Source: Plasmodiophora brassicae
Taxonomy: Eukaryota
Direction: 5' to 3'
DNA length: 64,000 nucleotides
NCBI GenBank assembly: GCA_036867785.1
Contig: CP145417.1
Coordinates: 868,001 to 932,000 of the forward strand
Shown here: one piece after another, positions 2,372-13,267 of the stretch
How positions within the stretch are numbered: position 1 is the first letter of the stretch
Layout of the letters: each line of letters begins with the position of its first letter
Translations under genes and position numbers: made by a program
Notes under the pieces: model-generated
Told to the model about the DNA's origin: nothing
Database searches by the model: none
The model's input: only the letters and a program-made list of their open reading frames with translations

Positions 2372-5110
2372 ATGTCTCAGCCGGGCGCCCTGCAGAGCCG
2401 GGCGGCCGCCGTCCCTGGGCCGCCCACGAAACCGGAACCCGGGGAGGGGTCGGCCTCAGCGGCGGCCATCGAGCTCGAGCACGGCATCGGGTATACGAGC
2501 ACGGCGAGGAACGGGATCGTGCTCCACCCGAACGGCAGGGATTACGTTTCGGCCGTCGGCGCGTGCATTGGTACCACCACCCTGTCCTGTACAGGGTTAT
2601 CGAATGCAGTGAACGCTGTGCGACAGTCATCAACGATCTCAACGACCCGCACCGGCAGGCCTTTCTTCGGGGGCACACCCAGACCGTCACCTGCGTCGAC
2701 GTCTCCGGATCGGTAAGACGGAAACGAGCAGGACGGTCCAGCCACGTCTGACGGGTCGGACCGCTCGCCAGGGGCGCCTGATCGCATCCGGCCAGCTGGG
2801 CGCCGAATCCGACGTGATCGTCTGGGACTTCGACACGAAATCCATCCGGTACCGGTTCGAGGAGCACCAGTCTGGCATTGCCGCCGTCTGCTTCTCGTGG
2901 GACGAGGTGCTCGATCCCGATCCACGGCGCCCCTGTTGCCCGGTCGCTAAACGTGTGGTGGTCGTGCTGGTGATCCAGAGGTTCCTCGTCACGGTCGGCG
3001 CCGCCGTCGAAGGAAAGCTGATCGTCTGGGATTGCCGAACGTAATTGGCGAGGATGCCACCTTGAAACCGATCCCCGATCGTAACCTGTCTGTGTACATA
3101 CCAGGGGCCTTATTGTTGGGTCCGCGCTCACCGCCCCCAGTCCGTTCTGTGCCATCGCTTGGGGAGGCAGAATCAAAGGTGTCTTGGTCCGACCCGTACC
3201 ATGGTTGGCGTTGGGTTGACCTGACGTGCAGATGTGAAACGGCGCCCGACGTCGGATTGCCAGTTCGCGACCTGTGCCGAGCAGGAGGGCCCTATCCTCA
3301 TGTGGAAGCTAACGCCCAGCACGGGCCACCTATCGTATGAAAAGGCATGCTACGCGTGTCGCCCTGTTCGGCATTCGCCTAAACAGCATTCCAGGTTCGA
3401 ACCGGCACCGTCAAGCGCGCCTACTCGTACGCGCTCGGTCGCTATCGGTCATCTTGCAGACCGACTAACGCGTCCCCTGGCAGGGCACTGTGTTTCTCGC
3501 CCGACGGCGACTTCCTGTTCGCTGGGTCGACATCGGGCGACGTCCTGTCGTTCCTCGTTCGCAACGGCGGCCTATGCGCGACGATCCCGGCCTGTGCCGG
3601 TGGCGTGCACGCCCTGATCGTCACGCCCGAGTGCGACGCCATCGTCGGCGGCGGCGACGGCTCCATCGTCTGCTTCAGACGCGAGAACCCGGTGCGTATC
3701 GCACGTCGCGTTAAGGAAACAGCCCCGCCCTGAAATTGTCTCAGAGGTCGTACGTGGACACGAAGCGCGTGCGTCTGCCTGGCGGCGTCTCCAGCCTGTC
3801 GAACAGCGCCGACTGGTGCGAGGTCGTCGTCGGCACCCTCGTCGGCGACGCCTACCGCCTGCGCCTATCCGACCTGAACGACAAGGCACAGGCGCGTGTG
3901 CCCTCATCTGTGGGCGTCGCTGACGCTACCCTGCCCACCCACCTAGGTGGTCCTGTCTCAGAACCATTCGGCGCCCGTGAACGCGATCGCGTTCCCACCT
4001 GGCGTGTCGGATCGGTTCGCGTCGTGTGCCAGCGATGGGACCGTGAAGTCAGGATGGGTCGAAGCGGCGCGACCGGCGAGCGTCTAACGAGCCGTGCAGG
4101 ATGTGGGACGTCTCCGACTACACGTTGATATCGAGCGGGCGCTGCGAGTCGCATGCGGCGACGAGCCTGGCGGTCTCGGAGGAGTGCATCATCACCGGGT
4201 GGGACGACGGCAAGATACGGTCGATGGAGGCGGCGACGGGCGACCAGCTGTGGGCCATCGCGAACGCGCACACGATGGGCGTGTCGGCACTGGCGCTGAG
4301 CCCCAACGAAGTACGCCCCGGCAGGCAGGCTGTACCGGTCGTCGGCGTCGCTGATCGGTTGCAGAAATTCATTGTCAGCGGCGGCGTCGATGGCGACGTG
4401 CGCGTCTGGGAGATCCGCAACCGGGACCTGCTGTGCCGCCTGAAGGAGCACACGAGCCGCGTGAACAGCCTCGCGATCTACGCCGACAACCGGTGCGCCC
4501 TGTCGTGCAGCCGGGACCGGTCGATCCTCTGCTGGGACCTGCAGGTCTGCCCCTGCCATTGCGATAGCGAGTCGCCTCTGCTGACTTGCTGCCCTAGGCT
4601 GAGCTGCGGGTGTCCTGCCATCGGCAGAACATGGGTGGGATCAACGACATTGGCGTAACGCGCGACCAGACGCTCGTGGTCAGCGTTGGCCAGGAGAAGC
4701 GGGTGACGTTCTGGGACCTACGGCAGCCTCAGGTACCGACCCCTGCCGTACTGTGGCGCCCATGGGCGTCGCCGATGTAAACCTGGCCGTGCAGGCCGTG
4801 CAAACGCTGGAGCTGGGCGCTGAGGGCACGTACATCGACGTCAGCCCGAACGGCACCATGTTCGCCACCGGCGACGACCACTGCCTGGTCAAACTGTTCG
4901 ACATGCGCACCAGGTCGCCTCTCGGTACGTCGTCGTCGTCGACGATTCGCGATGCCTTCGCAGAAAAACCGATGACATGGGCGTCGTCCAGCGACCGGCG
5001 TGGGGCACTCGAAGAGCCTGTCGTCGGTTCGGTTCAGCCCGGACGGCAAGCAGGTGATCAGCGCCGGCGACGACGGCAGCATCCTGATCTGGAACATTTT
5101 CACCACGTGA
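2372..5110 (+). CDS. CFAP52: Cilia- and flagella-associated WD40 protein, CFAP52/WDR16-like (multi-exon)
   Basis: Exons IELEHGIGY...LHPNGRDYVSAVG, QAFLRGHTQTVTCVDVS, LIASGQLGAESDVIVWDF, IITGWDDGKIR, FIVSGGVDGDVRVWEI, ALSCSRDRSILCWDL, VISAGDDGSILIWN; separated by GT-AG introns. Confidence 0.8.
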
Positions 5111-5438
5111 CCCGCGGTCGGCGGCAACGGAGGCGCGCGAGTAAACCATTGGGACGCTGGGGCACGGTACCGTCTGGAAGTAGATGGGCCGCTGTCGTCA
5201 TCGCTCAGCGTTGCCGGAGCGCATGGGCCCTCACGTAGCCGACCGGGGAGATCGTCACGGTCTGACGTGAAGCAGGACCGAATGCGAGTTGCCTGGCTGT
5301 TCATTGTTGCAACGCGCCCACGTCACCAGTGCGCCGACGACGCGCCGTACTCTGGCAAGGAACTTGAGGCAGGGCCTGCCGGTTACCAGACAGCGGTCGA
5401 CGTCGTTGGCCAAACGCCGTTATTGTATACGCGCGCGC

Positions 5439-7280
5439 CTAGACAGTGATGAACTCGGCGACGAGGCGATCGCGTAGCTCGATGGAGTCGGCATGGTCGG
5501 GGAACGCGTTCAGCGCCCTGGTCACCATGTTCCAGCTCTTCTGCAGGTCGCCAACGGCCTCGGCCACCAACGCTGGGCGATACGAATTTATGGCGGGCGT
5601 TCTTCGCACAGCAGACGCACGACTGACCTGCATTGAACATGGGCTCGAAATGGTGGTCGGCCAGCTCCGACGCCATCTCAAAGTAGGCGCACGCCTGCTG
5701 GTGGCCGCCCTTGCGAAGCTCCAGGACGCCCAGGTTGTTGAACGCCTCGGCGTGGTTGCCGTCGATCGATATGCAGACCTTCAGCGCTTGCATCGCCAGC
5801 GTCAGGTCGCCGATCCCGACCGCAATATGCCCGATGTTGTACCTACGCGTCGCGATTCAGTCAGCGCATGGCAGCGGGGACTGAAATCGACGCACCAGAC
5901 GTCCGCCATGTTGGAGTCGTCGGCCAGCGCCAGCGCGCGCTCGAAGCAGGTCAGCGTCATATCGTACTGGGCCGAGTAGAAGCAGCAGAGGCCGACGTTG
6001 TTCCAGATTTCCGTGTTGCCGACGCCCATCTGCAGCAGGCGCCGGTAGAATCGCAGGGCGATCTCCGGCTGGTCGTTATAGAAGTACTGGCCGGCCAGGC
6101 TGGCGATCGCCTCGATGTTCGACGCATCCAGGTGCAGGACCTGGCGCAGGCGTTCGAAGGTGAACACGCGGGGTAACAGGCCCACGTCGAGCGGGGCACC
6201 TTTCTGAAGATGGCGTCGGCGCTGGCGTAATCGTTCATGGCCTGATGGACACGCGCCATGCCGATGTGCAGGAGCGGCTCGCCCGGGTTGCCCTCCAGCG
6301 CCTGCGCATACACCGACAGGGCGCTGTTCGGCTGGTCGACCCGCAGGTACACCTTGCCCAGCTCCAGGAACGTTGCCACCATCTCCTGCATCTTCAGCGA
6401 CGCCCTGCGACATGGCCCGTCTCAGTGGTCGTCGTCGTGGTCGGCCCGCCCGCCTACTGGAGTTGCGCCTGCGCCTCCCTCAGCATGCCCAGCTGGTAGT
6501 ACGCCTTGCCCGACCGGGCCAGCCACCACCAGTCGGTCTGGCCGGACGACCTGGCACACTCCATGGCGAGCTCCAGCGCCTATCGCCCGAGGTCACGTGA
6601 TGAGCGGCGCACGATGCGACCCGCGAACCTTCTTCGGGTTGTGCTCGATGTACAGCAGGTAGTCGCAGAGCGCTTTGGCCAGCGCCGGCCGCTTGCTCAC
6701 CTTCTGGACGTCGATCTGCGCCACGTCGATGAAGGCGCCGTTCTCGCCGGCCAGCATCATCGACTGCGTCCCGAGGCGAACCTGCCGCCCGGCAACGGTC
6801 AGCGGCCGCGACGTCGTCGGCCGCCCGCTCTGCAGCGTCTTCCTCACGTTGTCGCTGGCCGTCCCCATCCTCGTGCTACCCCGACCAGCCGATCAGCATC
6901 GCTTCCCCGGGCGTCGAACCCCCAAGGCAGTACCTGGCGCCAGGCCGAGCAAAGCCAGTGGTGGGTCGCTGGATACCGGTCATGGGGCGAAGGCCACCGT
7001 TCTGCGTCGTCGTGGTCAACGGGCGCTGCAAGGAGGTGCCCGGGCGGGCGCCGCTGCCGGCCAGCGCGTTGTCGTCGAGGAGGATCTCGGCGACGCCGTC
7101 TTCCTCGAGGTCCAGGTCGTCGATGTACCCCAGTTCGGTCAGCGCCCGCGTCTTCAGGAACCACGCCGCCTGGTCCAGCGCGTTCTCCGCCAGGATCGAC
7201 GTGCACGCCTCGACGCAGGCCTCGTATCGGCGCTGCTCGAACAGGTGCTGCGCCACGTACACACGATCCAGCGTCGCCAT
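5439..7280 (-). CDS. BBS8: Bardet-Biedl syndrome 8 / TTC8 TPR protein (multi-exon)
   Basis: DQAAWFLKTRALTE...LLDDNALAGSGARPGTSLQRP; RQVRLGT; YFYNDQPEIALRFYRRLLQMGV; NNVGLCCFYSAQYDMTLTCFERAL; HAEAFNNLGVLE. Confidence 0.95.
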
Positions 7281-7328
7281 CCTGTGACAGCTGAGCGGCG
7301 CGAGACAGTTGGGCGGAGGGCGGCCCCC

Positions 7329-7348
7329 TGTGTGTGTGTGTGTGTGTG
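7329..7348. repeat. (TG)n microsatellite
   Basis: tgtgtgtgtgtgtgtgtgtg between BBS8 and the first EVE gene. Confidence 0.9.
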
Positions 7349-7369
7349 CGCGTTGGCACCTCTGTATCA

Positions 7370-7891
7370 TCATGGTTCCGGGTTCCCCGGGTACAGTCTG
7401 GTGCTGTTTGGCAGGCCGGCGGACGGGTCGGCGATGTCGCCCTGTCGAAGGTAGGCGCTCTTCGGCAGGCGCATGGCATGGGCGAGAACGAGGAAGTCCT
7501 CGTAGACGACCTCGCGTACGCCGTACCGTTTCGGGACCAGGCTGTGCTGCCACAGGTTCGCATCCGGGATGAACGACAGGCGCCCGACGACGTCGCGCGC
7601 GTCGACGCGGCCGCAGTCTGGGTAGAACCGCGCCCTCGATCGCCACTCCTTGTTGTCGTGCGCGTCCTTGACCGGGTAGGGCATGTCGCCCGTCACGACG
7701 CCGACGGCGGTGAACCGTCGCACCCACTGCGCCTTGTAGTGGAACACGTCGCGCGCCGAATAGTAGACGACCCAGTCGCCGCGCCGCACGCGCGTGTACG
7801 TCTCCCGCTGCGGGAACACGGTGTACCCGCCGCGAACGCACCGGTCGACGTCGCCCTTGGTCAGGAACCCGATGAAGTACCGCCGCGACAT
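7370..7891 (-). CDS. EVE-domain (PUA/ASCH fold) protein, YdcG/UPF0310-like, copy 1; intronless, 173 aa
   Basis: RYFIGFLTKGDVDRCVRGGY...RVRRGDWVVYYSAR...RRFTAVGVV...RLSFIPDANLW...YGVREVVYEDFLVLAHAM fits the YdcG-type pattern YWIGV..HV..GGF..GDWLIYYSP..FTAIG..LEF..WG..G.FEI...DF..I..AM. Confidence 0.8.
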   Translation of the reverse strand: MSRRYFIGFLTKGDVDRCVRGGYTVFPQRETYTRVRRGDWVVYYSARDVFHYKAQWVRRFTAVGVVTGDMPYPVKDAHDNKEWRSRARFYPDCGRVDARDVVGRLSFIPDANLWQHSLVPKRYGVREVVYEDFLVLAHAMRLPKSAYLRQGDIADPSAGLPNSTRLYPGNPEP

Positions 7892-8013
7892 CCGCCGTTT
7901 GCGACAGGCGGGGCTTTATTCGTCACGCGCCGGACGCCGACCTACGAACGCACGGGAACCCCTCCCATGGTATGCGACGACGACGACGATGCGGAACACG
8001 CGTCCTGTATTGA

Positions 8014-8499
8014 TTACCGGCGCGTGTCGAAATTCCAGAGCGGGTCGGCACACAGGAAGCGCGCAATGATGAGGTAGTCGTGCTTGTCGACCTCGATCAG
8101 GCCGCTGGGCGGCACGATACGCCGGCGCTTGACGTCGACGGGCATGCGGCGCAGGAACCGGAGCTGGGTGTCGAGCAGGTCGACGGAGACGGGATTGACG
8201 ACGTTCATGTACCGCATGGCGATGCGGAACTGGGTGTCGTGCCCGTTGCGAACGGGGTACGGCATGCTCTTCAGGACGATGCCGAACGCGGTGAAGCGCC
8301 GCACCTCGGGCGCGTACGTCGACCGGGACGCCCTGCCGGCGTACAGGGCGATCCAGTCGCCGTACCGGACGACGTCGGCGGTCGGGTCGTTCGGGAACGG
8401 GTAGAACTCCTCGTTGACGTAGCGTTTCGCCTGGCCGCGGTTCGTCAACCCGACCCAGAACCGGGCGCCCGACCGCAGCTGCGGCTTCAGGCCGCCCAT
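8014..8499 (-). CDS. EVE-domain protein, YdcG-like, copy 2; intronless, 161 aa
   Basis: RFWVGLTN...VRYGDWIALYAGR...VRRFTAFGIV...QLRFL...GLIEVDKHDYLIIARFL. Confidence 0.75.
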   Translation of the reverse strand: MGGLKPQLRSGARFWVGLTNRGQAKRYVNEEFYPFPNDPTADVVRYGDWIALYAGRASRSTYAPEVRRFTAFGIVLKSMPYPVRNGHDTQFRIAMRYMNVVNPVSVDLLDTQLRFLRRMPVDVKRRRIVPPSGLIEVDKHDYLIIARFLCADPLWNFDTRR

Positions 8500-8606
8500 G
8501 ATGAGCACGAACGCACCGCCCAATTAAGCCGGACAGCGCAACGGCGGCGGCAGGGTGCCCGCCACCTATGTACGTAACAGGTGGCGTCGTCGTAGTACCG
8601 GTTTTA

Positions 8607-9095
8607 CTATTCATGACCCGGCACGCGATGGATGCGCTGGTACTCCTTGTCGAAGGACCAGCGCGGGTCCGCCTTCATCGAGACGGCGATGATGTCGAAC
8701 TCGCGTGGCGTGACCAGGATCAGGCCGTGCTCGGGCAGGTGGAAGTTGTCGCCCCAGTCGATGCCCTGCGCGATGAACGACAGGTGCCGGGCGATGCGCG
8801 CCATCGGGACCGGCTCCGCGTCAATGTACTTCAGGGCGTACCGGTACTCGCATTGCCCGACGACGGGCGTCGGCGCGAAATCGGCGACCTGGCCGACGCC
8901 CGTGAACCGGCGCACCCAGCCCGACGATCGGTCCCGCGTCTCCCTGCCGGCGTAGACGGCCACCCAGTCGTTCCGGTGCAGGAGGTCCCCGTAGTAATTC
9001 GGCGCGTACTGCACGTACCCGCCGGCGCGGCACACCTGCGCCTCCTCGTGGGTGACAAGCGCGACGAAGTACCGCCAGGACAGCGCCGAGAACAT
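8607..9095 (-). CDS. EVE-domain protein, YdcG-like, copy 3; intronless, 162 aa
   Basis: RYFVALVTHEEAQVCRAGGYVQ...RNDWVAVYAGR...WVRRFTGVGQV...HLSFIAQGIDWG...GLILVTPREFDIIAVSM. Confidence 0.8.
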   Translation of the reverse strand: MFSALSWRYFVALVTHEEAQVCRAGGYVQYAPNYYGDLLHRNDWVAVYAGRETRDRSSGWVRRFTGVGQVADFAPTPVVGQCEYRYALKYIDAEPVPMARIARHLSFIAQGIDWGDNFHLPEHGLILVTPREFDIIAVSMKADPRWSFDKEYQRIHRVPGHE

Positions 9096-9300
9096 GCTGC
9101 TGGATGCGCCGGCGCCGCCGAATTTATGGCGGCTGCCTGGCCACCCGGCGGCGTCACCCTGCTCGGTGCTCATTGGTCGACGCTGATGAATTCGTGGCAA
9201 GGGAGTGCGTCGCACCAGTTGCCGCTCCGCAGGGGGGACATTCAGGTCGCCGCTGATCGAACCTGTACCGTCCCGTTCGTATCTTGTTCGTCGCAGGGAA

Positions 9301-9706
9301 ATGCCGGTGCTGGCGCTGGTCATCGAGCGGAACGAGGGCGGGCGCCGGCGACGGGAACTGCTGGTCCCGTCGCACGACCTGGCCATCGCCATGTGCTGCG
9401 GCGAGGGGCAGACCAGCCTGAGCGTCCGCCGCGTCGACCCGGAACGGGGCGCGCTAGCCGGTCGCATCATTGGCGACGTGCAGTGCTCGGAGCTGTTCAT
9501 CGGCAGCGCCGCCGAGTTCGCCTGCGCGATCGACGCTGTACGAGCGCCCCACCCGACACGTTCGTGCGTCGTCGCTGACCGGTGGCGTTCAGGTGCAAAC
9601 GCGGCCCAAGACGATGAAATCGCACCAGCGCCTGGTGAACGCCCAGCGCACGCTGCTGAAGTTCAGGGACATGTTCTTTGAGGCGATGCAGATCGATCAG
9701 CAATAA
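9301..9706 (+). CDS. Hypothetical small protein, two exons
   Basis: MPVLALVIERNEGG...FACAIDA, intron ~9538-9592 (gtacga...ctgac...ttcag), then VQTRPKTMKSHQRLVNAQRTLLKFRDMFFEAMQIDQQ*. Confidence 0.5.
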
Positions 9707-9796
9707 AGGGTGCAGGTATCGATCGGGACATGGTCGCTGGGGGGCGGTTTATATTGAAAGTCGGCGACCCTGGCCTCCCCCTGACGATGCGTTGCC

Positions 9797-11537
9797 CTAC
9801 ATCATCTCTTCGATAAAGTGCTCGTCCTGGTTCAGGGACGAGAACAAGTCGAGGTTGAACGTGCCGTCGTCCGACACGAGGCGCTTGCACATCTTGTCAA
9901 TGGCGATCGTCGCCATGACGGTCTGGACGTATCCCTCGATCAGGTCGTCGATGCTGATGCCGAGCTTGTTGAAGTCCTTGCGGTCCATCAGGACGAGCCT
10001 GTTCGTGTCCGACCCCCAGTGGCCGTTGTCGAGCTTGATCGACAGGTTCGTACCCAGCATCGGCCAGGAATCGTCGACACAGTCCAGCTCCTCTGTGAGC
10101 GGCTGCTCAGCACGGCGCCCATAGACGGCGATGGGGCGGAACCCGTCGGGCGATGCACCGATCATCATGCGGACGTCGGCGACGTACGTGCAATTCTTGC
10201 GGTTGGGGATCATCCCGACATGGTAGTACGAGCCGTGCTTGCCGATCGACGACCACTTCACGTTGCCGACCAGCTGCTGAACGATGAACTTGTCGTAGTG
10301 GTGGTCTAGGGCCATGAACCGGTCCAGTTCGGCTTTCGACGTGATGGTGAACACGCCCTGCCCCGCATTCGAGTATGGGATCTTGACGACCGCGTGCCAT
10401 CCCATCGACCGGACGTACAGCGGGATCTCAGCCAGGGCGACATCGGTGACCGTGTCAGGCGCATGGATCTGCAGGCCGGAATTGACCATCTCGGCGTTGA
10501 AGAAGTCGTACGCCTTTGCGGCGACCAGCTTGTTCCGCCCGCCGGCCAGACACGCCAGCACCGGATTGAACACGAGCGTCTTCGTGATCACCGGGAACCG
10601 GGTCCAGGGCTTCTGCGTCACGTAGCGGAACGCGGCACGAATCGGGAACCATTCGTCGCTCTGGTCGCGAACGTGCATGACGCCGTCGACCCACTTGACA
10701 GGAGGATCGGGCTGCACCCACCCACACGGTTACGCTATTGATCAACGGTCGCCTGACGACGACCAGCGTACATCGTAGCTGTAGAATTCGACGAGATAGA
10801 CGGGCTCATGGCACAGTTCAGATATGACGGCGGCGTACCCAGACGCCTCCATAGGGTTCTTGTCGTACACAACGGCGAGGCCTTGGACGGAAATCAGATA
10901 CTCGTCAGGTTTCCACAGCTGGACACGCCAGTTGCTTACCTCCAGCGGGCAGGGTCGCCTTTTGGCGTTCGAGCAGCGTCACAAACGATTTGCGAAGAAG
11001 GCGATGGTAACCGGTTTCGGCATTGTCATCGACGCCGTCCAGGGCGGGCATCGATTTTTGACCCGATGGGCACGAGTTAATCTCCACGATAATAATCAAC
11101 GTTGGTATAGGCGACGGGGGCAACAGGCAGGCGTGGTACCTCGATAACGATCATGCGACGTTGCGCGTGCTCATTCGTGACATGGAACAGGTCGGCGCCG
11201 GCCCAGTTGAAGAACGCCGGCTGGTAGTTGAACAATTCCATGATGCGATCCCGCGCGATCCCCGGGTGCAGATGCGAATACCTCATGGCGATGCGCTCAT
11301 TGCCCAGGTTGAGGAACGCCGTCACCATCGGCTACGCACGTACGGTCAATCAGCGGGCGACACGTCCGCATCGCAACGCACATGCAGTGACGCGTTCAGG
11401 ACGCGCGGGTAAAAGTGCTTCTCGGGTTCAAAGTCGTTGCCGGTGACGTGACGCCCGGCATGGCGCACCGTCTTTGACGTCCTCTGCTTTTCGCCCTCAT
11501 CGACGCGGTTCTGGGCCTTCTCGGCGGTGCTGACCAT
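9797..11537 (-). CDS. Conserved uncharacterised protein with an ATP-grasp-like signature (multi-exon)
   Basis: [19 protein letters not shown]...[87 protein letters not shown]. Confidence 0.7.
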
Positions 11538-11765
11538 CGAAACAACGCCCGCCCCGCGCAGCAGCTGTGGACGCGCCGCACACTCCGAAACAGCGTAAAG
11601 CCGCACCGTCCGCGCTGGACGCAGCCCTGCCGCCGCGGCACGTGACTGCCAGCGCGCGCACACGTTATCCCCCGGCCCAGTCAGCGTGGGCTGCATGACG
11701 ATGTAACCCGTCACGAACGTGCCATTCATGTTTTTTGGAGGGGGGTTGGCAGTTAGGGTGAGGTG

Positions 11766-12151
11766 ATGGCGGCTGGTGATCAGGCGTCGGAGAAGGCGAA
11801 ACAGGTGGCGGGCGCCCATGATCGCTAGGCGAGAACTGATGCGGGGGCGCCGCTGACATCGGTGTACTACGTGTGTGTGTGTAGGTCGAGTCGATTGTGG
11901 CATCGCTGGTGGCCATCCTGGGGGAGGACATGCCGAGAGACCCGGCCGTCGTCGCGTCGCGAATCTGCGTCATGGTCGGCCTGCCCGAGGATACGCCCGT
12001 GGACGTGCCGCACCTGCCGACGAAGCCCCTGTCCCGGGCGCTGGTTGACGTCGCCGCCCGCGTCGAGTCAGATGTCACGATGCGACGTGCTATGGAGGAC
12101 GAGCTCGTCGCTGACCTCTGCACGCTGCAAGCTGACCACTCAGGGATATAA
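11766..12151 (+). CDS. Hypothetical small protein, two exons
   Basis: MAAGDQASEKAKQ, putative intron ending at 11884, then VESIVASLVAILGEDMPRDP...QADHSGI*. Confidence 0.35.
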
Positions 12152-12199: not shown

Positions 12200-13027
12200 T
12201 TAGGCATTGCGTGGGTCTGCCTCGGCGTCGCAGAGCCAGGTCAGGTTGCCGGATGTCGGTCGAACAAGAGCAGCAGGAAGTTGGCAACATTCGCCCTGGA
12301 TAGAACGCATTGCTTCGCGTTTGCTTTTACCGCTCACGATGAACATAACGTGCCTGGACGCGTTCAGCGCTTCCAGCGTCAACGTGATTCGTGCAGGGGG
12401 CGGCTTTGGACTGCTCCAACGAAACAGCCGTCAGCAACAACAGCAACATCCAAGCACAGGCTAACCGTACCTGTCCGAGATAGAGGCCACCCGGCGATCA
12501 CGACAATCCAGCAGGCGGTGCCCGGGGAACAATGACGCTACGTGGCCATCGGGGCCCATACCCAATAGGACGACATCGATCCGGAAATCGTGGCCAAACG
12601 CGGCAACGAGATCGCGTTCGTATGCGACAGCGGCTGCCTCAGGGTTCTCGCCTATTGCGTTCTCGTTGAGGGCGATGACCTGCTCAACAGGGATCGGAAC
12701 GGGCAGGCGCGACAGGAAGTGCTTCTGCAGGAGGCCGAAATTCGATTCCGGATCCGAATGCGGGACGCATCGTTCATCAGCGAACACGACCCACCATTTC
12801 GAGAAATCGATCGTCCCCAGGTGGAGCAGGTGCGGGCAGAGCGTCGCCGGCAGCGACCCTCCCGAGAACGCGACAACGAACCGCCCGCGGCTGGCGATAG
12901 CATCCGCACTCGCTTGACTGACCTGGCGAGCGGCGGCCGCACCGACCTCCTCCAACGTCCGGAAGGCCTGCAACGTCGTCATCGACTGCGCGACACGTTC
13001 GAGAATGCGCTGGGCCCGATTTGACAT
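12200..13027 (-). CDS. PGLS: 6-phosphogluconolactonase
   Basis: FVVAFSGGSLP, FADERCVP..DPESN, DVVLLGMGPDGHVASLFPGH, intron, SPKPPPARITLTL. Confidence 0.95.
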
Positions 13028-13267
13028 CCAGCAGGCCTGTGTTCGCGACCAAAACTCCCGCTCTAGACCAAGCGCTACTCGTAAAAGAATGGTCTCCTAG
13101 AGCAGTGGCGGGTTATCGCAGCACCGATAGACGGCAGGCGTGCATCGCACTGCTGCAGTATTACCGATACGCGACAGGCACCAGCTGCCCACGATGGATC
13201 GGGCGCGCATGTTGCGATGGGAATCGGATGTCGTTTAGTCGTCGACAGCAGCAGCGAAACCGCGCTG

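What the first reader, a model, noticed from the sequence alone, without database searches (positions are those of the whole stretch)
7370..9095. Tandem trio of intronless, highly diverged bacterial YdcG-type EVE-domain genes in a protist
Seen: three co-oriented single-exon ORFs of 161-173 aa, about 110-120 bp apart, in a region where almost every other gene has several introns. All share R(Y/F)(F/W)V(G/A), (G/N)DW(V/I)xxY(S/A)xR, VRRFT(A/G)xGxV, L(S/R)F and G(L/V)xxVxxx(D/E)(F/Y)xI(I/L)A, yet are diverged at the DNA level. Known: this pattern fits stand-alone prokaryotic EVE proteins (YdcG/UPF0310) rather than eukaryotic THYN1; EVE domains are PUA-fold readers of modified DNA or RNA bases, often tied to modification-dependent restriction. 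Inference: a horizontally acquired and then triplicated set of modified-base readers, whose variable pocket region may give different specificities. It is a candidate undescribed epigenetic or anti-viral sensing system.
Basis: partly seen in the sequence, partly recalled or inferred. Interest (0 to 1): 0.75.

Follow-up and report, generated by a model that had tools for sequence, protein, structure and literature searches.

The report
Tandem bacterial-type EVE genes in clubroot
The clubroot parasite Plasmodiophora brassicae carries three neighbouring, intron-free, transcribed copies of a small bacterial-type EVE (PUA-like) fold; the family is real and already labelled in databases, but its ligand and role are unknown.

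Summary
Three co-oriented minus-strand ORFs lie 122 and 107 bp apart: 7370-7891 (173 aa), 8014-8499 (161 aa) and 8607-9095 (162 aa). They are about 30% identical as proteins and almost unalignable as DNA.

The window is Plasmodiophora brassicae. The genes are PBRA_005900, PBRA_005901 and a third gene whose record name was not shown. UniProt already labels the first two 'EVE domain-containing protein'. A fourth, unlinked paralogue is PBRA_000599.

HMM, profile and AlphaFold/Foldseek evidence place them in the UPF0310 (YdcG/PH1033/MJECL36) branch of the EVE/PUA-like fold, not with THYN1.

RNA-derived contigs from four studies splice 15 neighbouring introns but cross the trio without any splice. 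The genes are therefore transcribed and intronless.

The four P. brassicae proteins form one fast-evolving clade with no orthologue elsewhere. An old transfer from bacteria is plausible: the family is mostly bacterial and patchy in eukaryotes. No donor is resolved, and AU tests reject neither a eukaryotic nor a bacterial sister.

The 'modified-base reader / antiviral system' reading has no support:
- no effector partner is present;
- the bacterial family's invariant motifs are lost;
- no UPF0310 protein has a known ligand.

Verdict: a new member of a known kind, of modest interest.

The parts
7370..7891 (-). Gene A, 173 aa (P0001). It differs by 2 residues from PBRA_005900 / CEO97786.1. UPF0310-type EVE domain at residues ~4-140, with a low-confidence C-terminal tail.
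   Evidence: ORF, translation. Pfam EVE PF01878 26.1 bits (cut-off 23). NF002616 69.4 bits. AF2 pLDDT 86.9. Foldseek top hit PH1033 at 1.6e-8. Name. RNA contigs cross it without a joint.
8014..8499 (-). Gene B, 161 aa (P0002). It differs by 4 residues from PBRA_005901 / CEO97787.1. This is the most diverged copy.
   Evidence: No Pfam hit. NF002616 25.2 bits, E 1.3e-5. AF2 pLDDT 85.8. Foldseek top hits MJECL36 at 3.3e-7 and PH1033 at 3e-6. Name, residue differences. End branch 4.01 against a median of 0.18.
8607..9095 (-). Gene C, 162 aa (P0003). Another public model (P0286, 188 aa) starts at 9173.
   Evidence: No Pfam hit. NF002616 31.8 bits, E 1.1e-7. The 188-aa form appears. A 1-base indel at 9143 in run X8 lies inside the 26-codon extension, which favours the 9095 start (inference).
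7892..8013 (-). 122-bp spacer between B and A. It contains a (GTC)n run on the gene strand.
   Evidence: RNA contigs cover it.
8500..8606 (-). 107-bp spacer between C and B.
   Evidence: RNA contigs cover it. Run X8 carries a 2-base insertion at 8566.

Best explanation
The trio are three expressed, intronless paralogues in Plasmodiophora brassicae of the UPF0310 (YdcG/PH1033/MJECL36) branch of the EVE/PUA-like superfamily. A fourth, unlinked copy is PBRA_000599.

Origin (inference): one old acquisition from a bacterium, followed by duplication (three copies in tandem, one dispersed) and unusually fast divergence.

Function (inference): each protein is a single-domain beta-barrel with no signal peptide and no partner domain. 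A, B and PBRA_000599 are strongly basic. The proteins most likely bind a nucleic acid or a nucleotide/nucleobase-type ligand in the pocket that this fold uses elsewhere. They keep the fold-forming core (GDW, YYS, FTAxG, R, LSF, G, DF..IA) but have replaced the motifs that are invariant in bacterial relatives (W, S, H, Q-x-C-H-G-K, RR, WG..FR). Their ligand is therefore probably not that of the bacterial proteins and may differ between copies.

They are not a restriction-type or defence module.

Shown: identity, fold prediction, transcription, lack of introns, clade structure. Inferred: the transfer, ligand binding and functional divergence.
For: Family:
- Pfam EVE hit for A above its cut-off.
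- All three hit NCBIfam PRK02268.1-2 at E 2.9e-19, 1.3e-5 and 1.1e-7.
- A profile of the trio finds 317 proteins at E<=1e-3 among 1.84 billion; all named ones are EVE/UPF0310.
- The profile hits PDB 'UPF0310 protein PH1033' at 8.2e-17 and MJECL36 at 6.6e-11.
- The AF2 models of A and B (pLDDT 86.9 and 85.8) match PH1033/MJECL36 first, then the VcaM4I EVE domain, Rpa0253 and YTH domains.

Real genes:
- Spliced RNA contigs from 4 studies cover 7360-9537 collinearly.
- In run X8 the coding SNPs are 4 synonymous to 1 non-synonymous, and both listed indels in 7360-9537 lie outside the ORFs.
- GC3 is 0.90-0.95, at the top of the host range of 0.54-0.88.

Lineage-specific clade:
- Only the 4 P. brassicae proteins are found among 3849 candidates.
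- Only the 3 window proteins score E<=1e-30.
- Clade support is 93 and 97*.
- End branches are 1.34-4.01 against a median of 0.18.

Bacterial background:
- The eukaryotic members fall in separate places. Chytrids nest with Paenibacillaceae/Leeia (97*), and dictyostelids are placed apart.

Motif loss: of 56 columns at least 85% conserved in 78 bacterial sequences, A keeps 27, B 20, C 21 and PBRA_000599 27. C-H-G-K, H23, S20 and R103 are lost in all four.

Charge: pI is 9.7, 10.3 and 9.3 for A, B and PBRA_000599, against a bacterial median of 9.14.

No signal peptide: the first strand of the fold starts at residue 5 in A and residue 14 in B.
Against: - No donor or sister group is resolved. AU tests do not reject a single clade with dictyostelid-type sequences (p 0.805), so a shared eukaryotic origin is still possible.
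- Codon usage is fully host-like, so nothing marks the genes as foreign.
- Lack of introns in three roughly 500-bp paralogues counts as a single event, and it could also arise by retroposition.
- B and C fail the Pfam EVE threshold, and all three fall far below NCBIfam's curated cut-off of 139 bits.
- The AF2 models were built on an alignment that contains UPF0310 proteins, so the fold match is not independent of the sequence match.
- No ligand is known for any UPF0310 protein. MJECL36 showed no m6A binding (PMC6112328). YdcG deletion gave no stress phenotype and only a 5-12-fold change in its own promoter's activity (PMC5730154).
- C is not basic (pI 6.65).
- The assignment of the lost motifs to the pocket rests on homology with VcaM4I and MJECL36 descriptions, not on inspected coordinates.
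Confidence: 0.6

Rival explanations
1. One reading: the trio are readers of modified bases (5mC, 5hmC, 6mA or m6A) with different specificities, forming an epigenetic or antiviral sensing system.
For: - The fold is that of EVE/YTH readers.
- The VcaM4I EVE domain flips 5mC/5hmC into a pocket formed by P24, W82 and Y130 (PMC7897488).
- THYN1 is reported as a 5mC/5hmC reader (PMC7641849).
- The putative pocket columns differ between the paralogues.
- Three of four residue differences between isolates in B (K124R, P131A, S132N) lie in the loop that replaces the WG..FR motif.
Against: - No nuclease, NTPase or other effector domain was found in the 8 flanking ORF pieces scanned.
- THYN1 ranks only 29th for B and is not listed among the hits for A.
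- MJECL36 showed no detectable m6A binding (PMC6112328).
- The archaeal aromatic-cage positions are not aromatic in the bacterial or P. brassicae proteins (my mapping).
- A homologue exists in a dictyostelid (Polysphondylium), while Dictyostelium discoideum is reported to lack both 5mC and 6mA (PMC12695648). This point is weak and indirect.
- No paper links P. brassicae with EVE domains (0 papers).
Confidence: 0.15
2. The proteins bind a free small molecule (a nucleotide, nucleobase derivative or xenobiotic) rather than a nucleic acid, as the bacterial operon context suggests.
For: - In the 80 bacterial loci, 46 have a co-directional upstream ORF within 60 nt: Rhodanese 13, Glyoxalase/VOC 12, Polyketide_cyc2 6, DinB_2 5.
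- 32 have a co-directional downstream ORF within 60 nt: MarR 17, WYL 2.
- This matches the 'ligand-activated' EVE class of Bell et al. (PMC7641849, section 8).
- A PUA-family module that binds free m6-dAMP has been reported (abstract seen in the listing).
Against: - The eukaryotic genes have none of these partners.
- The motifs invariant in the bacterial proteins are lost.
- YdcG has at most a marginal role in regulating its own operon (PMC5730154).
- The high pI of A and B fits polyanion binding.
Confidence: 0.2
3. Vertical inheritance: an ancient eukaryotic UPF0310 gene was kept in a few lineages (phytomyxids, dictyostelids, chytrids) and lost elsewhere. No transfer into P. brassicae occurred.
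For: - The AU test does not reject P. brassicae plus the dictyostelid-type rows as one clade (p 0.805).
- Codon usage is host-like.
- Deep divergence of the four paralogues implies old age.
Against: - Eukaryotic members sit in different parts of the tree. Chytrids nest in a starred clade with Paenibacillaceae/Leeia, and the P0014/15/33 group sits inside cyanobacteria.
- No relative of the P. brassicae clade turned up in 1.84 billion representatives or 5.8 billion clusters.
- The genes have no introns in a genome that averages 4 per gene.
- The AU test accepts a Chlamydiota/Dependentiae sister equally well (p 0.807).
Confidence: 0.2
4. Artefact or relic: bacterial contamination of the assembly, or decaying pseudogenes.
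For: The similarity is bacterial-type and the sequences are very diverged.
Against: - The genes lie between spliced eukaryotic genes on the same RNA-derived contigs. X8 record 15 spans 4100-9509 with the introns removed.
- The proteins were seen on 3 contigs each, up to 1.39 Mb long.
- The ORFs are intact, the SNP ratio is 4 synonymous to 1 non-synonymous, and GC3 is 0.90-0.95.
- The fold models are confident.
Confidence: 0.02

Closest known systems
Bacterial UPF0310 / YdcG-type stand-alone EVE proteins (NCBIfam PRK02268; the MarR- or YafY-linked 'ligand-activated' EVE class of Bell, Wolf & Koonin 2020)
   Same: Same size (about 140-170 aa), a single domain, and the best HMM and profile matches. 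The shared core is GDW, YYS, FTAxG, R, LSF, G and DF..IA.
   Different: - Scores of 69, 25 and 32 bits fall far below the curated 139-bit cut-off.
- Only 20-27 of 56 conserved columns are kept; C-H-G-K, H, S and RR are lost.
- There is no MarR, WYL, VOC, SRPBCC or rhodanese neighbour.
- The host is a eukaryote, and the copies are in tandem.
Archaeal UPF0310 structures PH1033 (1wmm, 2hd9) and MJECL36 (2p5d)
   Same: Top sequence-profile hits in the PDB (8.2e-17, 6.6e-11) and top Foldseek hits (TM on target 0.68-0.77).
   Different: Identity is 14-19%. The aromatic cage described for MJECL36 (W25, F79, F90; PMC6112328) is not conserved, by my mapping of the alignments.
UPF0310 homologues in other eukaryotes: Polysphondylium violaceum CYY_003791, Chytriomyces sp. 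MP71 KAI8609044.1, Physocladia obscura KAJ3078806.1
   Same: Stand-alone bacterial-type EVE proteins in microbial eukaryotes.
   Different: These keep the bacterial consensus (short branches, HGK motif) and group elsewhere in the tree. The P. brassicae proteins form a separate, much longer-branched clade.
THYN1/Thy28, the widespread eukaryotic EVE protein
   Same: PUA-like/EVE fold.
   Different: No sequence-level hit. Foldseek ranks 5j3e 29th and 3eop 50th for B, and neither is listed for A.
EVE-HNH modification-dependent endonuclease VcaM4I (6yex)
   Same: Its EVE domain is the 4th-6th Foldseek hit.
   Different: The trio has no nuclease domain, fused or adjacent. The pocket residues P24, W82 and Y130 were not shown to be present.

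Membership tests
EVE domain (Pfam PF01878), PUA-like superfamily | Score above Pfam's gathering threshold | tested here: inconclusive
   A scores 26.1 bits against a cut-off of 23, so it passes. B and C have no EVE hit at E<=1. In the database's precomputed Pfam column PF01878 is listed for A only.
EVE domain (Pfam PF01878), PUA-like superfamily | [quoted passage not shown] | tested here: met
   The AF2 models of A and B show strand-helix-strand followed by further strands. Foldseek probability is 1.00 to UPF0310, EVE and YTH structures. C was not modelled. The models depend on a UPF0310-containing alignment.
EVE domain (Pfam PF01878), PUA-like superfamily | Binds a modified base in the conserved pocket | not testable with these tools
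   This needs binding assays or a structure with ligand.
UPF0310 (NCBIfam PRK02268 / NF002615-7; YdcG, PH1033, MJECL36) | Score above NCBIfam's curated cut-off | tested here: not met
   NF002616 scores are 69.4, 25.2 and 31.8 bits against a cut-off of 139.
UPF0310 (NCBIfam PRK02268 / NF002615-7; YdcG, PH1033, MJECL36) | Closest family by profile and by fold | tested here: met
   The only two PDB sequence hits at E<=1 are UPF0310 proteins, and they are the top Foldseek hits. The nearest Atlas cluster is named 'UPF0310 protein'.
UPF0310 (NCBIfam PRK02268 / NF002615-7; YdcG, PH1033, MJECL36) | Bacterial consensus motifs (W, S, H, Q.CHGK, GDW.YYSP, FTAIG, RR, LSF, WG..FR.G, DF) | tested here: not met
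   20-27 of 56 conserved columns are kept. The CHGK, H, S and RR columns are lost in all four P. brassicae proteins.
MarR/YafY-linked EVE three-component systems (Bell et al. 2020) | Operon with a MarR or WYL regulator and a VOC or SRPBCC ligand-binding protein | tested here: not met
   Bacterial relatives show this context. The flanks in the window hold a TPR gene, a small spliced gene, a 306-aa exon with no Pfam hit, and a 6PGL-like gene.
THYN1-like eukaryotic EVE | Sequence or fold closest to THYN1 | tested here: not met
   THYN1 gives no sequence hit. Foldseek ranks it 29th and 50th for B.
Modification-dependent restriction (EVE-HNH, EVE-McrBC) | EVE fused to or next to a nuclease or GTPase | tested here: not met
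   The proteins are single-domain. The 8 neighbouring ORF pieces scanned hold no such domain. Only proteins of 88-303 aa were searched for relatives, so fused forms elsewhere were not sought.

The most novel reading that the evidence does not exclude
The four fast-diverging P. brassicae UPF0310 proteins are a parasite-specific set of sensors or sequesterers for N6-substituted adenines. These could be 6mA in DNA, m6A in RNA, or free cytokinins, which are N6-substituted adenines whose host levels the clubroot pathogen is thought to manipulate (PMC4815078 abstract). Each paralogue would be tuned to a different ligand. This rests only on three things: the YTH/EVE-type pocket of the fold, the bacterial link to Bet v1-like/SRPBCC ligand binders, and the divergence of the putative pocket columns. 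None of the evidence here tests it.
Probability: 0.05. Interest if true: 0.8.

Novelty: new member of a known kind. Interest (0 to 1): 0.3.

Why it matters
This would be a clean example of a bacterial-type stand-alone EVE/UPF0310 gene settling in a eukaryotic parasite and then expanding and diverging unusually fast. It would also give four natural pocket variants of a fold for which no ligand is known in any organism.

For clubroot biology it adds a small, expressed gene family that was found only in P. brassicae here and that no paper found in these searches discusses. As it stands, the finding is an annotation-level result. It opens no long-standing question and does not reveal a new kind of system.

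Tried and rejected
- Whole-genome search of the window's own assembly: no genome is held. The gene structure of PBRA_000599 and the copy number outside the window could therefore not be checked on DNA.
- The search for related loci with the broad alignment A2 failed for lack of a conserved stretch. The narrower bacterial alignment A5 was used instead.
- Word-based homologue search with A alone found only A itself among 35 candidates.
- RNA holders: no listed run is on record as RNA; all are labelled 'RNA? (a guess)'. That the laid contigs are RNA-derived is inferred from the introns they skip. Contig depth cannot rank the genes' expression. A contig spanning several genes does not show a polycistronic transcript.
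- A 16-letter loose end at 7974 in all four runs lies in a (GAC)n/(GTC)n run. I treated it as an assembly-graph effect and did not follow it.
- Donor search by phylogeny: two quick trees and two AU tests gave no resolved sister. Rows dropped:
  - 5 of 89 ids, for length under 125 or over 330 aa;
  - 2 of 80 loci, for short matches;
  - a subset I chose of 38 of 78 loci plus 14 other rows, with the long-branched P0008 and P0072 left out.
- Literature: 'Plasmodiophora brassicae' with 'EVE domain' gave 0 papers. Six PBRA locus tags gave 0 papers. Supplementary tables of the genome and transcriptome papers, where stage-specific expression of these genes might be listed, could not be seen.
- Earlier notes of this scan: nothing on this genome or on these sequences. 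One note on an unrelated archaeal EVE-array protein did not bear on this case.
- Pocket mapping on coordinates was not possible because model coordinates are not exposed. The mapping is by alignment only.
Full report
WHAT IS THERE

One search lists three minus-strand ORFs:
- A: 7370-7891, 173 aa.
- B: 8014-8523 from a TTG; 161 aa from the first ATG at 8499.
- C: an open frame 8607-9500 whose family-homologous part starts at the ATG at 9095, giving 162 aa.

A second public model of C (P0286, 188 aa) starts 26 codons upstream. In run X8 a 1-base indel at 9143 lies inside that extension, which favours the 162-aa form (inference).

The spacers are 122 and 107 bp, and the next gene's ATG follows A's stop after 87 bp. 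The proteins are about 30% identical, with 25 invariant columns. tblastn between copies gives E 1e-13 to 2e-16, and the window holds exactly three copies. At DNA level only 27-72-nt patches align, at 74-89% identity.

ORGANISM AND PUBLIC RECORDS

An exact-cluster look-up shows that a 2-residue variant of A is CEO97786.1, PBRA_005900 of Plasmodiophora brassicae. A 4-residue variant of B is CEO97787.1, PBRA_005901. UniProt names both 'EVE domain-containing protein'. C is held by the same sources, but its record name was not shown.

The best non-self hit of a trio profile is a fourth P. brassicae protein, PBRA_000599 (P0004, 166 aa), recorded on contigs of a different longest length from those that hold A and B. 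No paper in the searched library combines 'Plasmodiophora brassicae' with 'EVE domain' (0 papers) or cites six neighbouring locus tags (0 papers).

FAMILY AND FOLD

- Pfam's EVE model passes its threshold only for A (26.1 against 23 bits); B and C have no hit.
- All three match NCBIfam PRK02268.1-2 at E 2.9e-19, 1.3e-5 and 1.1e-7, far below the curated 139-bit cut-off.
- A profile of the trio, read against 1.84 billion representative proteins, found 317 at E<=1e-3, 48 at E<=1e-10, and only the three window proteins at E<=1e-30.
- A profile of the trio plus 37 hits (including PBRA_000599) matches just two PDB sequences at E<=1, both named UPF0310: PH1033 (8.2e-17) and MJECL36 (6.6e-11).
- The AlphaFold2 models of A (pLDDT 86.9) and B (85.8) have the strand-helix-strand start and barrel strands of the fold.
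- Foldseek ranks PH1033 and MJECL36 first, then the EVE domain of VcaM4I, Rpa0253 and many YTH domains. THYN1 appears only at ranks 29 and 50 for B.

The models lean on an alignment that contains UPF0310 proteins, and C was not modelled.

TRANSCRIPTION AND INTRONS

No run is on record as RNA. When four runs of four studies were laid on window 4000-12000, their contigs skipped 49-67-nt segments bounded by GT..AG or CT..AC. There are 15 listed joints and 2 more not shown:
- six in the minus-strand TPR gene at 5572-6934;
- four in a plus-strand gene at 4047-4991;
- one at 9537/9593;
- four from 10711 onwards.

Such joints show that the contigs derive from spliced RNA. The same contigs run collinearly through 7360-9537 (X1 record 3; X2 records 5 and 6; X7 record 11; X8 record 15) with no joint. 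The trio is therefore transcribed and has no introns, in a genome that averages 4 introns of 60 bp per gene (PMC4471660, passages).

Contigs cannot show transcript ends, strand or level. Short spacers and overlapping UTRs are normal for this genome (PMC4815078, passages), so bridging contigs do not show a polycistronic mRNA.

Between the window and run X8 the coding differences are 4 synonymous and 1 non-synonymous (S58T in B). Both listed indels within 7360-9537 fall outside the ORFs. GC3 is 0.90-0.95 against 0.54-0.88 in seven other coding stretches. These are maintained genes with host-like composition.

EVOLUTION

A word-based search with the four P. brassicae proteins found only those four among 3849 candidates. 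In trees of 84 and 94 rows they form one clade (SH-aLRT 93 and 97*), with A sister to PBRA_000599 (88 and 84). End branches are 1.34-4.01 against a median of 0.18. These are quick-search trees that warn of long-branch effects.

The family at large is bacterial.

Named eukaryotic members are Polysphondylium violaceum and the chytrids Chytriomyces sp. and Physocladia obscura. In one search the chytrid group nests in a starred clade with Paenibacillaceae and Leeia. The dictyostelid group stands apart. An unnamed group with low-complexity tails (P0014, P0015, P0033) sits among cyanobacteria. This patchiness fits several independent transfers.

For P. brassicae no sister is resolved. AU tests reject neither a union with the dictyostelid-type rows (p 0.805) nor one with Chlamydiota/Dependentiae/Bacteroidota rows (p 0.807). 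Horizontal origin is therefore the more economical reading but is not demonstrated.

WHAT THE RELATIVES DO, AND WHAT WAS LOST

I made a crude ORF call on the 80 bacterial loci.
- 46 have a co-directional ORF ending within 60 nt upstream: Rhodanese 13, Glyoxalase/VOC 12, Polyketide_cyc2 6, DinB_2 5.
- 32 have one starting within 60 nt downstream: MarR 17, WYL 2.

This is the context that Bell, Wolf and Koonin describe for their almost exclusively prokaryotic 'ligand-activated' EVE class (PMC7641849, sections 5 and 8 read). It also fits the B. subtilis ydcF-ydcG-ydcH (PamR) operon. There, deleting ydcG changed no tested stress resistance and raised its own promoter's activity only 5-12-fold (PMC5730154, passages).

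A review reports that MJECL36 has an aromatic cage (W25, F79, F90) but no detectable m6A binding (PMC6112328, passage). No UPF0310 protein has a known ligand.

Of 56 columns at least 85% conserved in 78 bacterial sequences, A keeps 27, B 20, C 21 and PBRA_000599 27.
- Retained: the core positions GDW, Y, FTAxG, R, L.F, G and DF.
- Lost in all four: S20, H23, C-H-G-K (columns 36-39) and R103.
- Q69 is R in all four.
- W15 is F in three of four.

By alignment to VcaM4I's described pocket (Q10, T11, E15, W22, P24, W82, Y130; PMC7897488) and to MJECL36, several of the lost columns lie where this fold holds its ligand. That is an inference from alignments, not from coordinates.

A, B and PBRA_000599 are strongly basic (pI 9.7, 10.3, 9.3); C is not (6.65). 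The fold's first strand begins at residue 5 in A and residue 14 in B, which leaves no room for a signal peptide. The proteins are therefore unlikely to be secreted effectors.

VERDICT

Shown: three real, expressed, intronless, tandem UPF0310-type EVE genes, part of a four-member, fast-evolving family found only in P. brassicae in these searches.

Likely (about 0.6): descent from an old bacterial transfer, and a role as a binder of a nucleic acid or nucleotide-type ligand with altered specificity.

Unsupported: a modified-base-reading, epigenetic or antiviral system. There is no effector partner and no evidence on the ligand.

The finding is a new member of a known kind. Two of the genes already carry the EVE label in public databases. 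Interest is modest at 0.3.

Noticed in passing
window 5572-7282 (-): The gene immediately downstream of A has at least 6 short introns (49-59 nt, CT..AC on the plus strand) and TPR repeats (Pfam TPR_1 in 5805-6479). Its N-terminus looks like BBS8/TTC8, a ciliary protein, but that name is recalled and not tested.
   Followed up: partly
window 9205-9706 (+): A small plus-strand gene diverges from gene C. It has one 55-nt GT..AG intron (9538-9592), seen in all four runs, that joins two reading frames in phase. The first exon piece has no Pfam hit.
   Followed up: partly
window 9797-11382 (-): A gene with at least 4 introns (joints at 10711/10772, 10880/10939, 11081/11140, 11331/11382). Its 306-aa last exon has no Pfam family at E<=0.01.
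   Followed up: no
window 7318-7359: A (CA)n/(GT)n microsatellite sits in the 87-bp spacer between gene A and the TPR gene. RNA contigs break there.
   Followed up: no
window 7974: The same 16-letter loose end appears in contigs of all four runs, at a (GAC)n run in the A-B spacer. It is probably an assembly-graph or repeat-length effect.
   Followed up: no
gene B residues 124-132 (window ~8104-8130): Three of the four residue differences between two P. brassicae records of B (K124R, P131A, S132N) fall in the loop that replaces the family's WG..FR motif. C is identical between records, and A differs at 2 sites.
   Followed up: partly
P0014, P0015, P0033 (metagenome and Logan proteins): UPF0310 proteins with long Q/N/E-rich tails, which look eukaryotic, form a 100* clade nested among cyanobacterial sequences. 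This may be another transfer into an unnamed eukaryote.
   Followed up: no
L014, L048, L052, L075, L079: Chlamydiota (Simkaniaceae, Waddliaceae) and Dependentiae carry typical UPF0310 genes flanked by co-directional small ORFs. From recall, these lineages live inside protists, which would make them conceivable donors, but the tree does not single them out.
   Followed up: partly
window 12464-13096 (-): An exon encodes a Glucosamine_iso / 6-phosphogluconolactonase domain (Pfam E 3.5e-45).
   Followed up: no
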